Shown in pieces: positions 20,490 through 27,525 of a stretch of DNA of 64,000 bases. The DNA is taken from NCBI GenBank assembly GCA_951406725.2, contig OX597815.1, positions 57,660,001-57,724,000 on the forward strand. Direction: 5' to 3'. The notes under the pieces were generated by a model. That model made no database searches, was not told the DNA's origin, and worked only from the letters and a program-made list of their open reading frames with translations. Position 1 is the first letter of the stretch. Each line of letters starts with the position of its first letter. A program made the position numbers and the translations under genes. Source of the DNA: Octopus vulgaris. Lineage: Eukaryota.

Positions 20490-21020
20490 TATATATTATT
20501 ACGGAGATGTACCTGCATAGCGAGTGACTTGATCTGAGATTGTGTGCTAGAACGAAAACAATTGCAGCGTGGAAGGTGTTTATAACCCATTTAAGAAACA
20601 CACAAAACCGTTAGATTCACTTCAAGATTTAAATTTAATTTGTCAAAATATTTTCGTCGCCTTGAGACCGCGACCTGTTTACTGACAAAACTAGTTATCT
20701 CTGCCGAATCACTTGAGCCCATGGGTATATCTAATTTAGTAGGAGCGTATTTATTAAAATGCATAAGTAGAGAAATCCCCGAATTACAAGGGGATTTATA
20801 TAGAGATGATGCTTTAGTTATCGCACCTAGTAGCAACAAATCTGTAATTGAGAGAATAAGAAAGAAAATTAGTAGATTTTTCAAAGATTTCAACTTAGGC
20901 ATTACTTATGAATATAACACCAAGATAGTTAATTTTCTAGATGTTACCTTACACTTAAATTCAAAGTTATATCACCCATTTAGAAAGGAGAGTGAAGTTA
21001 CCAGATACGTAAATAAAATC
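20490..21020 (+). mobile_element. Penelope-like element: inverted pseudo-LTR piece (~20490-20694) plus RT fragment
   Basis: ORF 20640-21026 has AE...LVG.YLL...LYRDDAL...F..F.L.IT...N.KIVNFLDVTL.L....Y.PFRK, typical of PLE RT. Cut off by the gypsy fragment. Confidence 0.85.
20639..20689 (-). ncRNA. Hammerhead-shaped motif with non-canonical core
   Basis: Minus strand: TTTGTCA GTAAACAG GTCGC ggtctcaag GCGAC GAAAATATTT TGACAAA. Stem I 7 bp, stem II 5 bp, GAAA, palindromic stem III; core is not CUGANGA. Confidence 0.45.
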
Positions 21021-21864
21021 AAATAAACCAAATGGGGTGGTAATCGCTGTCTTCGGTATATCATTTTCTGCAACAGGAATTTGATTGTATGCTCTGACTA
21101 AATCAATTTTTGAAAAAATAGTACAACCACTCAAAGAAGTTGCAAATTCCATAATGTGTGGTATTGGATATTTGTCTACTTTTGTTTTTGCATTAAGTTG
21201 CCTGAAGTCTCCACAAGGTCGCCAGTCTATAAGATTTTTCTTTACCATAACTAATGGCGTTGACCAGCTACTACTGGAAGGACGGATTATACCTAGATCC
21301 ATCATATGACGAAATTCTGCCTTAGCCACCTTCAATTTTTCAGGAGATAATCTTCTCGGCTTAGAAAAACTTGGTGGTCCTTGTGTGACGATGTGATGTT
21401 CTACCGAATACACACACTTGGTATTTAGAGCTAACTGTTTCGTGATATTTGGATAATTCTTCAAAATCCTGTGATATCTATTTTCCGAGGATGCTATGAA
21501 ATACAATGGACTGACTGTGCTTTTTCTGCATCTCATTCCTTGAATTTTTAATGAAGTTTCTGTGTCTATCAATTTTTGTTTTTTAACATCTACCATTAAA
21601 TGATAGTGTGCCAAAAAATCCGCTCCTAATATTGGATATGGTAAATCTGCTACTATGAAGATCCATTTATACTCTCTTCTTAAATTTATATCTAGAGTTA
21701 AGTTAATCTCTCCAAATGTTTGGATTTCAGATTGATTAACTGCTTGAAGAGTCAAATATACAGGTTTGGTATTTTGTTTTAAAAGCTTTACAGGCCAAAT
21801 TGAACAAGCTGCTCCTGTATCAACTAAAAACCTTTCTTTTGAGTTTAAGTCATAGACGAAAAAT

Positions 21865-21929
21865 ACGCGACTTTTTATGATGTTATCCACAGATTTTGCC
21901 GCATCTAATCTGTGGTTGAGAAGTTTCCC
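21865..21929 (-). promoter_or_regulatory. -1 programmed ribosomal frameshift signal between gag and pol
   Basis: Slippery G GGA AAC (21929-21923) in the gag frame, 7-nt spacer, 9-bp stem CCACAGATT/AATCTGTGG; the -1 frame runs directly into the protease ORF. Confidence 0.85.
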
Positions 21930-23719: not shown

Positions 23720-25850
23720 AACCAATGGGAAAAAACAAAAATGATAATTCTTCGGCAAAGACATTACGTCATATTGCCAATTCGCGCCACATTTCAAAAT
23801 GGCTAAAATGGTTATTGCTACAGTAGGATTAGATCAAAATGTCTGGTAACTGGTCGTTCTTTGGTCCAAAATGTAATTTATAAATGCACGATAATAACTT
23901 CTAGCAATAGCTTTCTTTATTTCGGTTGTTCGGTGGATCTTAAAAGACGTCTTAACAATCATTTTTCCTCTTTTAGGCTCAAACATAAGGCAGGTTGCAC
24001 AACATTATCTTGCAAAATTTGGGAACTAAAAACAAATAATATAAAATTCAACCTAGTTAGAAGAGCGCAACCTTATAGAAATAGTAGGGATGGTTGTCAA
24101 CTGTGTTCTATGGAAACTTATGAAATTTTAAAACATCAGAGTAATACAAATCTGTTGAATAACTGTTTGGAGCTGGGATAATCTTGTATACATCATACGA
24201 CCCGAACATTTAAATACTTTAAATAATAATTTTGAGAATATTCCTATATTTTTCAAATTTTAATTCTTTGTAACCAAATACGAAAGAATATACCATACTG
24301 GCTTTCAATTTAACATTCATAGATAACTACAAAAACTTCACTGCAAACTTAAAATTGAATCCTTTTTTCTAAAATTAAACTGTATGAATCTAAATAGTTG
24401 GAATCCTAAATAGTATGAATCCTAAATAGTAGGAATACTAAATAGTATGAATCCTATGTCCCTAAAGAAACTATTCGGTTCACCTTGATTATCTCACTTC
24501 CATTTCTTAATATATAATTAGTCTAAGATATCTTTACAAAATATATATTTAACCAAATAGGAACGAATATACCATACTGGTTTTAGTTTAACACTCATAA
24601 ATGATTTAAAAACTTCACTGCAAACTTAAAATTAAATTCTTTTTTATAATGTTCTCCAATACTAAGTAGCATTAATCCTATGTCCCTAGAGAAACTATTT
24701 GGTTCATCCTGATTATCTCACTCCCATTTCTTAATATATAATTAACCTAAGATATTTTTACCTAACTAATTAACTTTTATCCGCAGGTAGTAAATTTTAT
24801 TCCCAATAGATCCTATACTTTAATTCATTAATATCAACTCACTATCCATGAAATTTGAATAAATCCTTAAAAAATCCTTTAAAATGTTTTAGCCCGAAGG
24901 CCGCGGCCATGCTGGGGCACCACCGCTGAATAGTTTACTCTTCCAAATTACCTCTCTTCATATTATAAAATATCACTTTCTACTAAACCTATGAATATAT
25001 TCCTTCTTTGATTTTCCCTCTTCCATCTTTCTTAGTATATATTTTGACCCCTAATATGTTCACTTGATTAATAAGGCTTTTTCCCCCAGTTAATAAGTAC
25101 TATGCTTACTCATAATAAGTGATAGTCTTTTTTTCCAAATTGAATAAATTTTGGATTTATATTTTTACCTTTATTCTAACGTGTCAAAGTACTTGGAACT
25201 TATAGACTAACTGTTGTGGTGATGTGTATAGGGTTTATAAGGTCTCTGCATTCTCTGTGAATGTTATTGTGACCACTTGACATTGACCTAGTTCTCCTAA
25301 CGCTGAATCTGTTCATCAAATAGTAGTAATTGGCATTTAGTTGTGACAATGTTGTTTTCTACATAAATTCCTTATATTGGAGCTTTGACATCCCCTTTAC
25401 CCCATTTCTATAATTAGAAAATCTTTATTGTCTCCTTTCATTTGTTCTTCCCTCTCATAACCTTACAGTAGTCTGGAACAACTAAATCTTAGTCAGTCAG
25501 TTGATGGGCTCCACTACCTCAAATGTTCTTAAAATTTAAATCCACATCTTTGTCTATATACCTACCTTCTCTATAATGTTGCCACTTGATATGAAAATTT
25601 TTGTATTAATGGAAAACCTCTATAATTGGCTGATGAGTGCTCAGCATTTTAAAACTGTTGTAATACTTACAACATTTAATAAAATTATGTAGTATGAAAC
25701 GATCGTACCAAATTACCGGAGTCATTCTTGTTGCTTATTTTGATTATAATCACCCCACGGATTTTTATGGATAACACCATGCACAATTCTGGTGCATCTA
25801 AATTAAATACCATATTCATTTGAATCTAAATTTTTGCTGAACTTATATAT
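23720..25850 (+). mobile_element. Penelope-like element 3' part: GIY-YIG relic, long 3' region with internal duplications, hammerhead-bearing pseudo-LTR
   Basis: ORF 23861-24181 (NVIYKC...YFG....LKRRLNNH.SSFR...TTLS..IWELK...CQLCS.E...I...LLN); canonical hammerhead near the end. Confidence 0.85.
25623..25715 (+). ncRNA. Type I hammerhead ribozyme (PLE-associated)
   Basis: TAATTGG CTGATGA GTGCT...AGTAT GAAAC GATC GTA CCAAATTA: intact core, palindromic stem III ACGATCGT, GUA cleavage triplet, long stem II capped by TGTTGTAA-tac-TTACAACA. Confidence 0.85.
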
Positions 25851-25896
25851 ATGTATGTATGTATGTATACATACTTATATATATGTATATATATAT

Positions 25897-27525
25897 ATAT
25901 TGTTATATTTCGGAATGGTCATATTGCCAGTTTAGCCAATAAAAACACACGCACTATATATTTGGTGTTATTTTGCTTCAGTGATATTTATTTTTTACAT
26001 TAATCTTAATCTTATTTCGGCCAAAGTTCTTTCGTCACACTCCTGTGACCGCATCAGTGGTCCTTTGTTTTCTTCTCACTTATTTGTGTCTCTCCTTACT
26101 AACCGTCAGCCATTTTGTATTTCTATTGCATGTCTTCATTTGCGCATGCTTATATCTCTATGTGCGTCTATGTTTATTTAGTGTGTGTGTGTGGGGGGGA
26201 TGCCTGTAATATTTGTATCTTCTGTTTATATACATTCTTGTAATTTGTATTTTGTTTTTGTTGTTGTTGCTTTTGTTCTAATTTTGTTCATGTGTTTACA
26301 TCCACCCATTATTATCATTACATATGCTTGTATGTATGTATAACAACAATATTAGTAATAATAATAATAAATCTAATCGAAAAAAAAAATATATATATAT
26401 ATATATATATATATATATATATATATATATATATATACACACATATATATACATATATATATATATATACACACATACATACATAGATATATATACATAT
26501 ATATAGTTATTCATTTCTATCTGTTTATTTATCTGTGTATTTATTATGTTTTCAGGATCCTCTATCGTCATATGTTGTGGTGTGTGCTATTGCTCCATTC
26601 TAGTTTTCTATTCAGGCTAGGTTTATTTTCTATTATATGTGTAGCTTCTGTAATTTGTCTAATTGTTGCATCTGTTCTATGTGTGGACAATATCTTAATC
26701 TCTATGTTATTGATTGATCCCCCATGTTCCTGTTTGGCGTGTTGGTACAGAATCGATGAGCTTTTACCTTCCTTGAGTTGTCTCCAATGTTCATTCACCC
26801 GCTCTCCAATGCTTCTTGCTGTTTCCCCTACGTATGTTACTGTCTCGTTACTGCATCGTCCCTCTATACATCTTATACTATAGACAGATAGATAAATAAA
26901 CAGATAGAAATGAATAACTATATATATGTATATATATCTATGTATGTATGTGTGTATATATATATATATGTATATGTATATATATATATATGTATATATA
27001 TATATATTTTTTTTTTCTTTTTTTTTTTTCTTTTTTTTTTTCCGATTAGATTTATTATTATTATTACTAATATTGTTGTTATACATACATACAAGCATAT
27101 GTAATGATAATAATGGGTGGATGTAAACACATGAACAAAATTAGAACAAAAGCAACAACAACAAAAACAAAATACAAATTACAAGAATGTATATAAACAG
27201 AAGATACAAATATTACAGGCATCCTCCCCACACACACACACTAAATAAACATAGACGCACATAGAGATATAAGCATGCGCAAATGAAGACATGCAATAGA
27301 AATACAAAATGGCTGACGGTTAGTAAGGAGAGACACAAATAAGTGAGAAGAAAACAAAGGACCACTGATGCGGTCACAGGAGTGTGACGAAAGAACTTTG
27401 GCCGAAATAAGATTAAGATTAATGTAAAAAATAAATATCACTGAAGCAAAATAACACCAAATATATAGTGCGTGTGTTTTTATTGGCTAAACTGGCAATA
27501 TGACCATTCCGAAATATAACAATAT
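25897..27525 (-). mobile_element. 5'-truncated Penelope-like element: GIY-YIG fragment (26568-26880) between inverted pseudo-LTR copies
   Basis: Arms ~25897-26534 and ~26889-27525 are near-identical reverse complements. The spacer encodes VYSIRC...C...[16 protein letters not shown]...H...H...RQITEA..I...PSLN.K.EW. Confidence 0.9.
27359..27403 (+). ncRNA. Hammerhead-like variant in pseudo-LTR (second copy at 26019-26063, minus strand)
   Basis: GGACCA CTGATGCG GTCAC aggagt GTGAC GAAAGAACTT TGGCC; core CUGAUGCG in place of CUGANGA. Confidence 0.55.

What the first reader, a model, noticed from the sequence alone, without database searches (positions are those of the whole stretch)
20639..27403. 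Two unrelated Penelope pseudo-LTRs carry hammerhead-shaped RNAs with the same non-canonical 8-nt core geometry
Seen: motif A (20639-20689, minus) is stem I TTTGTCA/TGACAAA, core GTAAACAG, stem II GTCGC/GCGAC, GAAA, palindrome AATATT, then U. Motif B (27359-27403 plus; 26019-26063 minus) is stem I GG(A)CCA/TGGCC, core CTGATGCG, stem II GTCAC/GTGAC, GAAA, near-palindrome AAAGAACTTT. Both have 8 nt instead of 7 between stems I and II, end the core in G, open stem II with GTC, covary at stem II position 4 (G-C vs A-T) and place UU at the expected cleavage position. Established: PLE pseudo-LTRs carry minimal type I hammerheads with palindromic stem III that act as dimers, and some core variants are already described. 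Inference: intact stems around a rewired core suggest a variant ribozyme, or a non-catalytic RT-recognition structure, rather than random decay. Novelty is not confirmed.
Basis: partly seen in the sequence, partly recalled or inferred. Interest (0 to 1): 0.72.

Follow-up and report, generated by a model that had tools for sequence, protein, structure and literature searches.

The report
Drifting hammerhead cores in Penelope retroelements
Both motifs are real hammerhead-shaped RNAs at the ends of related Penelope-type jumping genes, and their shared "extra letter" is the normal form for such elements; one family carries an old natural swap of two paired core letters and likely still cuts slowly, while the other recently lost a conserved core letter yet multiplied to thousands of copies, so fast self-cutting is likely not needed for these elements to spread.

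Summary
Both motifs exist as described and exceed chance. The claimed novelty fails. An 8-nt core is the published consensus of Penelope (PLE) hammerheads (CUGANGAH; 54 of 56 examples, U17 in 24). The two repeats are also related: their 3' tails are homologous, and sister families carry the ordinary core CUGA(A/U)GA-G with the same GUC stem II.

What remains is two separate stories. Family A (1,152 exact matches, short ~200-nt inserts, no ORF found) has consensus GUGAACA-G, a natural C3:G8 to G3:C8 swap kept since an older subfamily about 24% diverged. The window copy's odd GUAAACAG is a rare G5A decay, predicted dead. Family B (3,339 matches, RT plus GIY-YIG ORF) descends from ordinary CUGAUGA-G copies (585 matches); A9C, then U17, arose in successively younger subfamilies.

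Best reading: A is a slow, dimer- or protein-assisted variant ribozyme; B is a likely weakened ordinary one that hitch-hiked. Nearly all inserts span the cut site, so they were copied from uncut RNA. Cleavage is untested.

The parts
20499..20692 (-). Family A short PLE-type element (5'-clipped by about 15 nt against sister copies), ending in a (TA)n tract
   Evidence: sister copies start at one fixed site about 20-25 nt before the core and end at one of two 3' sites
20639..20689 (-). Hammerhead A: stem I 7 bp, core G3 U4 A5 A6 A7 C8 A9 plus extra G, stem II 5 bp, GAAA, palindromic helix III AAUAUU, U17; this copy has G5A at 20680 and is predicted inactive
20499..20556 (-). Optional 58-nt 3' tail of family A, homologous to the tails of families B and E
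25897..26918 (-). Family B PLE body: 5'-truncated GIY-YIG endonuclease end plus 3' pseudo-LTR
26571..26900 (-). GIY-YIG endonuclease C-terminal frame of family B (Pfam PF01541, E 4e-4, just below the curated cut-off)
   Evidence: longer RT plus EN frames in L061 and L062
26019..26063 (-). Hammerhead B, 3' copy: core C3 U4 G5 A6 U7 G8 C9 plus extra G, U17
26919..27577 (+). Inverted 5' copy of the family B pseudo-LTR with its 3' tail (typical PLE 5' inversion; arms 94% complementary over 620 nt)
27359..27403 (+). Hammerhead B, inverted copy; C9 at 27371 (A in older copies), U17 at 27398 (C in older copies)
27294..27321 (+). Zone where many family B copies begin (44-71 nt before the core); likely the transcription start
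   Evidence: 17 of 48 C9 copies and 14 of 31 A9 copies start 43-71 nt before the core; the start-site reading is inference

Best explanation
Both motifs are minimal type I hammerheads of one clade of Penelope-like retroelements: family A carries an old natural G3:C8 swap and is likely a slow self-cutter that would need a partner copy or the element's protein, while family B is an ordinary hammerhead whose young, most numerous subfamilies carry A9C and are likely weakened. Shown: the sequences, copy counts, subfamily order in B, relatedness of the families, persistence of G3:C8, and that inserts span the cut site. Inferred: transcription starts shortly before the ribozyme; a PLE reverse transcriptase (in trans for A) primes at AT-rich DNA and starts copying at either end of the tail, giving short start-to-tail inserts from uncut RNA; cleavage after U17/C17, if it occurs, is slower than copying. 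The window's copy of A has G5A and is predicted dead.
For: 8-nt core in 54 of 56 published PLE hammerheads, one with an extra G. A core GTGAACAG in 87 of the first 100 of 1,152 matches; no change at 3% or more listed at the core in four public runs of four coded organisms. Older subfamily G keeps G3:C8 while N7, loop II, helix III length (AAUU to AAUAUU, still palindromic) and a stem I pair change; 32 of 131 downstream columns differ; with the core left free, 7 of 7 G-type rows have G3 and 5 have C8 (read by eye). G3:C8 copies form one clade, support 0.996. The swap is the one rescue seen in the core in pairwise mutagenesis (PMC9901934) and partly restores a PLE hammerhead (PMC11167929). B: 585 ordinary-core matches; diversity 0.116 for A9 against 0.035 for C9; C9 nested in A9, support 0.89; sister families E and E2 ordinary. 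PMC11167929 found hammerhead mutants do not affect insertion in vitro.
Against: No cleavage was measured. No number for A9C activity was found (0 papers; 0 hits); its harm is recalled. Subfamily G was first found with a pattern that demanded G3:C8, and the unbiased check has only 7 rows. 13 of the first 30 A loci are passengers of one larger repeat, so the A counts are partly repeated sampling. Exact patterns favour young copies, so C9:A9 ratios are inflated; A9 diversity includes one divergent outlier and clipped copies. Direct pairwise A-versus-B similarity is weak (z 2.4, no better than an unrelated control at 2.6); only profiles show it. No tandem A copies were seen to serve as a dimer partner, and no autonomous partner of A was found.
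Confidence: 0.68

Rival explanations
1. The fold is kept as a non-catalytic structure (protein recognition or RNA folding signal) and neither family cuts.
For: Over a thousand A inserts and thousands of B inserts span the cut site; B expanded after A9C; cutting would split a 200-nt non-autonomous RNA from its 5' end (inference); catalytic mutants did not affect insertion in vitro (PMC11167929).
Against: The only two core positions changed in A are the two that pair, and they still pair: about 1 in 66 for the positions times about 1 in 3 for the pairing if random (my arithmetic). All 12 catalytic positions are unchanged between subfamilies 24% apart. That the 3:8 pair belongs to the active conformation is established knowledge (PMC9901934 passage).
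Confidence: 0.17
2. Both cores are dead relics that drifted and were carried along by successful master elements, with no selection on the motif.
For: Fits B well: single changes (A9C, then C17U) in successively younger subfamilies. Other odd cores occur in this genome (CTGTNGAA, CCGACGA, TTGATGAG).
Against: Does not fit A: compensated 3:8 pair, compensated stem I pair, helix III palindrome kept through a length change.
Confidence: 0.12
3. One reading: two unrelated elements converged on a new, rewired 8-nt hammerhead core.
For: Both have an extra G after position 9, which lies outside the published >80% consensus (H), and neither family majority is CUGANGA.
Against: The 8-nt core is the norm and one published example has the G; the families are homologous and ordinary-core relatives share the G and GUC; the two cores differ from the ordinary one at different positions.
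Confidence: 0.03

Closest known systems
Minimal type I hammerheads in pLTRs of metazoan Penelope-like elements (Cervera and de la Pena 2014, PMC4209133)
   Same: Extra nucleotide between 9 and 10.1, G10.1-C11.1, 5-6 bp helix II, tiny palindromic helix III, U16.1 with U17 or C17, position in the terminal repeat, inverted copies.
   Different: None of the 56 aligned examples has G3:C8 or C9; the natural swap reported there is U3:A8. The extra base is G in only 1 of 56.
Poseidon PLE hammerhead of Anolis (Frangieh et al. 2024, PMC11167929)
   Same: Two 3' ends separated by an optional tail, AT-rich targets, uncut RNA used as template; the engineered C3G/G8C double mutant is the core that family A has naturally.
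   Different: There the swap was engineered and the ORF starts in the ribozyme; here no ORF follows the A or B ribozyme and A has no coding partner found.
Natural hammerhead core variants (Perreault et al. 2011, PMC3088659)
   Same: Compensatory change of the 3:8 pair occurs in nature.
   Different: Section 8 lists U3:A8, A6C, insertions and U15.1-A16.1; it names neither G3:C8 nor A9C.
Non-LTR retrozymes (Li et al. 2026, bioRxiv 10.64898/2026.07.22.740005)
   Same: Short non-coding, hammerhead-bearing derivatives of PLE pLTRs.
   Different: Retrozymes are tandem arrays; family A copies are dispersed, single or back-to-back inverted, with a fixed 5' start upstream of the ribozyme.

Membership tests
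PLE minimal type I hammerhead | Helices I and II around a CUGANGA-N / GAAA core with G10.1-C11.1 | tested here: met
   Helices and GAAA in both; exact core in older B and in E copies
PLE minimal type I hammerhead | All conserved core nucleotides intact | tested here: not met
   A: G3:C8 (plus G5A in the window copy); young B: C9
PLE minimal type I hammerhead | Watson-Crick 3:8 pair | tested here: met
   G3:C8 in A and G, C3:G8 in B and E
PLE minimal type I hammerhead | Short palindromic helix III and NUH cut site | tested here: met
   A: AAUAUU then U; G mostly AAUU then U; B: AGAACU (two A.A mismatches in a dimer) then C or U
PLE minimal type I hammerhead | Self-cleavage as dimer or with protein | not testable with these tools
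   No assay possible; only contigs were available for the public runs
Penelope-like element (family B) | Single ORF with RT then C-terminal GIY-YIG, pLTR, 5' inversion, optional tail | tested here: met
   RT (RVT_1, E 2e-4, YVDD motif) and GIY-YIG frames in L061 and L062, inverted pLTR and tail in the window; both Pfam scores are below the curated cut-offs
Penelope-like element (family A) | RT-EN ORF upstream of the pLTR | tested here: not met
   No shared upstream sequence except inverted copies; no shared downstream continuation in 100 listed of 137 tail ends
Penelope-like element (family A) | PLE insertion marks and pLTR homology | tested here: met
   Two 3' ends, inverted 5' copies, (TA)n targets; tail homology to E and B above all of 200 shuffles
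Non-LTR retrozyme | Head-to-tail tandem arrays of monomers | tested here: not met
   No arrays in the A loci examined
Rfam hammerhead families | Covariance-model match | tested here: not met
   No hammerhead among 124 matches at E<=5

The most novel reading that the evidence does not exclude
This clade is a natural tuning series in which Penelope elements turn their hammerhead down: a long-lived non-autonomous lineage fixed the slow G3:C8 core (with U17, which avoids a G3-C17 mispair), and the most successful autonomous subfamilies fixed A9C, because slower cutting leaves more intact template for the reverse transcriptase. That would make the open question of what PLE hammerheads are for directly testable with matched natural alleles.
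Probability: 0.2. Interest if true: 0.7.

Novelty: new variant of a known kind. Interest (0 to 1): 0.4.

Why it matters
The role of hammerheads in Penelope elements is unsettled (PMC8557442 passage: function 'still unclear'). Family B gives matched natural alleles (A9/C17, C9/C17, C9/U17) in an element that kept amplifying, a genomic counterpart to the in vitro result that cleavage is not needed for insertion. Family A is a natural version of an engineered rescue mutant that descriptor searches for CUGANGA miss, so PLE hammerhead counts are likely underestimates. The 8-nt geometry itself is ordinary.

Tried and rejected
Rfam scan: no hammerhead match. The RT fragment next to motif A as A's own ORF: rejected, it runs with the endonuclease at 23807-24178 and the ordinary hammerhead at 25630 in other loci. 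Search for an autonomous A element upstream and downstream: none; inverted pairs 2.7 kb apart are a larger repeat carrying A as a passenger. Other G3:C8 families with a different second pair in stem II: 534 matches against 1,398 in the reversed control, no paired family among the 100 rows listed. Pairwise A-B alignment: not significant (the family E test there used a copy cut too short and was replaced). Inserts starting at the cut site as a sign of cleavage in vivo: of 100 listed of 111 rows, 11 start exactly there and 8 more are fold-backs within stem I, against about 4 per position further upstream (counted by eye); neighbouring positions are also raised and microhomology blurs the edges, so inconclusive. 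U3.G8 family F: only 1 match with the core free, not established. Expression: no RNA holder listed on record; contigs cannot show RNA ends. Minimum-energy folds do not resolve the catalytic dimer. Lunse et al. 2017 and Przybilski and Hammann 2007 are not held, so they were not seen.
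Full report
Observation. Both motifs are present exactly as written. A strict hammerhead-shape descriptor with the core left free gives 4 hits in the window (A, the two B copies and one unrelated hit) against a mean of 0.23 in 30 locally shuffled windows. 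Rfam lists no hammerhead among 124 matches at E<=5. The genome has 2.8 Gb in 227 contigs; an octopus is my inference and is also what earlier notes of this scan say.

The 8-nt geometry is not new. [quoted passage not shown] By my count of their 56 aligned examples, 54 have 8 nt, 24 have U17, 1 has an extra G, and none has G3:C8 or C9.

Context. Motif B lies in a typical PLE insertion: a truncated GIY-YIG frame at 26571-26900 (-), its 3' pseudo-LTR, and an inverted 5' copy with the tail. Longer copies hold RT and endonuclease frames (Pfam scores below cut-off). Motif A abuts an RT fragment, but that fragment belongs with the endonuclease at 23807-24178 and an ordinary-core hammerhead at 25630, a third family. 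Family A copies are about 150 or 210 nt long, start at a fixed site shortly before stem I (the start motif is within 30 nt of the core in 40 of 51 loci), end at one of two 3' sites, often carry an inverted partial copy and sit in (TA)n. No shared upstream sequence or downstream continuation was found, so A is read as non-autonomous.

Family A core. With the core left free there are 1,152 exact matches and 0 for the reversed control; of the first 100 listed, 87 are GTGAACAG, none GTAAACAG and none CUGANGA. GTAAACAG was seen in the window copy and one other locus among 17 copies. The family core is therefore G3 U4 G5 A6 A7 C8 A9 plus G: the C3:G8 pair reversed. The window copy has lost G5 and is predicted inactive (established knowledge of the core, recalled). 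Caveat: 13 of the first 30 loci are passengers of one larger repeat. An older subfamily G (81 matches with loops of 3-7 nt, a mix of G and a sister of A) keeps G3:C8, with C7, another loop II, mostly a 4-nt palindrome and a G-C pair where A has U-A in stem I. Majority sequences of A and G differ at 32 of 131 downstream columns. Since G was found with a G3:C8 pattern, I checked with the core free: of 100 listed of 108 rows, 7 are G-type; all have G3, 5 have C8 and 2 T8 (by eye). Four public runs of four coded organisms show no change at 3% or more in the A core, though the core lies near the edge of the stretch laid.

Family B core. 3,339 exact matches with the core free; of the first 100, 83 are CTGATGCG and 3 are the ordinary CTGATGAG. 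A search for the ordinary core in the same stems gives 585 matches. In 31 A9 copies (from the 30 loci) and 48 C9 copies (from 40 stretches taken from the top), mean pairwise distance is 0.116 and 0.035; position 17 is C in 28 of 31 and 26 of 48. The window copy belongs to the youngest, near-identical C9/U17 group. In a tree of 66 hand-picked copies, C9 is nested in A9 (support 0.89), C9/U17 in C9 (0.955), and all G3:C8 copies form one clade (0.996). One A9 copy has the young background (L144; not in the tree). In runs of three other coded organisms, A9 makes up 16%, 13% and 51% of depth and C17 91-100% (a fourth run with 6 contigs showed neither). So A9C is derived and predates these lineages' split, and U17 is later (inference).

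Relatedness. Families E and E2 have CTGAAGAG, the same extra G and GTCAC/GTGAC, with translated pieces 45-71% identical to the B protein. Direct A-B alignment downstream of the ribozyme is weak (z 2.4; unrelated control 2.6). A profile of 11 E tails scores B 83 bits, three A copies 9.9-20.4 and one G copy 17.4, each above all 200 shuffles; two other G copies and the control are not. A profile of 23 G and A2 copies scores B 15.2 bits, above all 200 shuffles. The shared features are thus inherited, not convergent.

Mechanism. Pairwise mutagenesis found the G:C swap to be the one rescue in this region (PMC9901934, passages). In a PLE hammerhead, C3G/G8C partly restores cutting, cutting needs the element's protein, and mutants do not affect insertion (PMC11167929, parts 1-2 of 4). 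A passage in PMC3884650 says a G3-C8 variant was more active with G17 than with C17 (data not shown there), which fits, weakly, U17 in the A lineage; U17 also occurs in ordinary-core relatives. I found no measurement for A9C; that A9 pairs with G12 and matters for rate is recalled. B copies also cluster at a 5' start 43-71 nt before the core. I infer short start-to-tail inserts made from uncut RNA. A test for inserts beginning at the cut site was inconclusive.

Novelty. Searches that found no report of a natural G3:C8 or A9C PLE hammerhead: and for cephalopods 17, 61, 75 (listings only). Also seen: PMC3088659 (passages and section 8), PMC8557442, PMC6765202 and PMC6155905 (passages), PMC11014351 (term search, no hits), bioRxiv 10.64898/2026.07.22.740005 (abstract and section 14; supplements closed). 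Lunse et al. 2017, the survey most likely to list such variants, is not held and was not seen, so novelty is provisional. This scan noted the G3:C8 family four times before; a sequence look-up for B found nothing.

Verdict. Real motifs, known kind. The headline claim is wrong, but family A is a credible natural variant and family B a useful natural experiment. Interest 0.40.

Noticed in passing
window 20700-25842 (+): A third PLE family: RT fragment 20727-21023, GIY-YIG 23807-24178 (PF01541, E 6e-5) and an ordinary-core hammerhead at 25624-25714 (CTGATGA-G, palindrome CGATCG, long ragged helix II). Motif A abuts its 5' inversion junction, which could be a template switch between two PLE RNAs; seen once only.
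   Followed up: partly
window about 20970-23050 (-): A broken gypsy-like LTR retrotransposon (protease, RT) inserted inside the third PLE's RT.
   Followed up: no
window 59193-63780: LTR retroelement with 216-nt repeats 99% alike, 4.4 kb apart, with gag-like, RNase H and integrase frames.
   Followed up: no
L071:7948+, L091, L110, L053, L084: Other repeated hammerhead-shaped motifs with odd cores: CTGTNGAA (U at position 6) and CCGACGA (C at position 4), with GAGC stem II and CG palindrome.
   Followed up: no
L215, L219: Two diverged relatives with U3.G8 cores (TTGATGAG); a core-free search found only one match.
   Followed up: partly
L079, L086-L088, L092, L096-L099, L102-L104, L106-L108: A larger repeat (700 nt or more, in places a palindromic unit of about 4 kb) carries a back-to-back pair of A copies as a passenger, with a U-A to U.G change in stem I.
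   Followed up: partly
window 27335-27348 (+) and L163-L192: The youngest B subfamily gained a GTAAGT splice-donor-like motif about 25 nt before the core, and the likely start zone holds AAAATGGC, which resembles a YY1 initiator (motif names recalled, not tested).
   Followed up: no
window 54020-54628 (+): Mariner-type transposase fragment (PF01359, E 2e-24).
   Followed up: no
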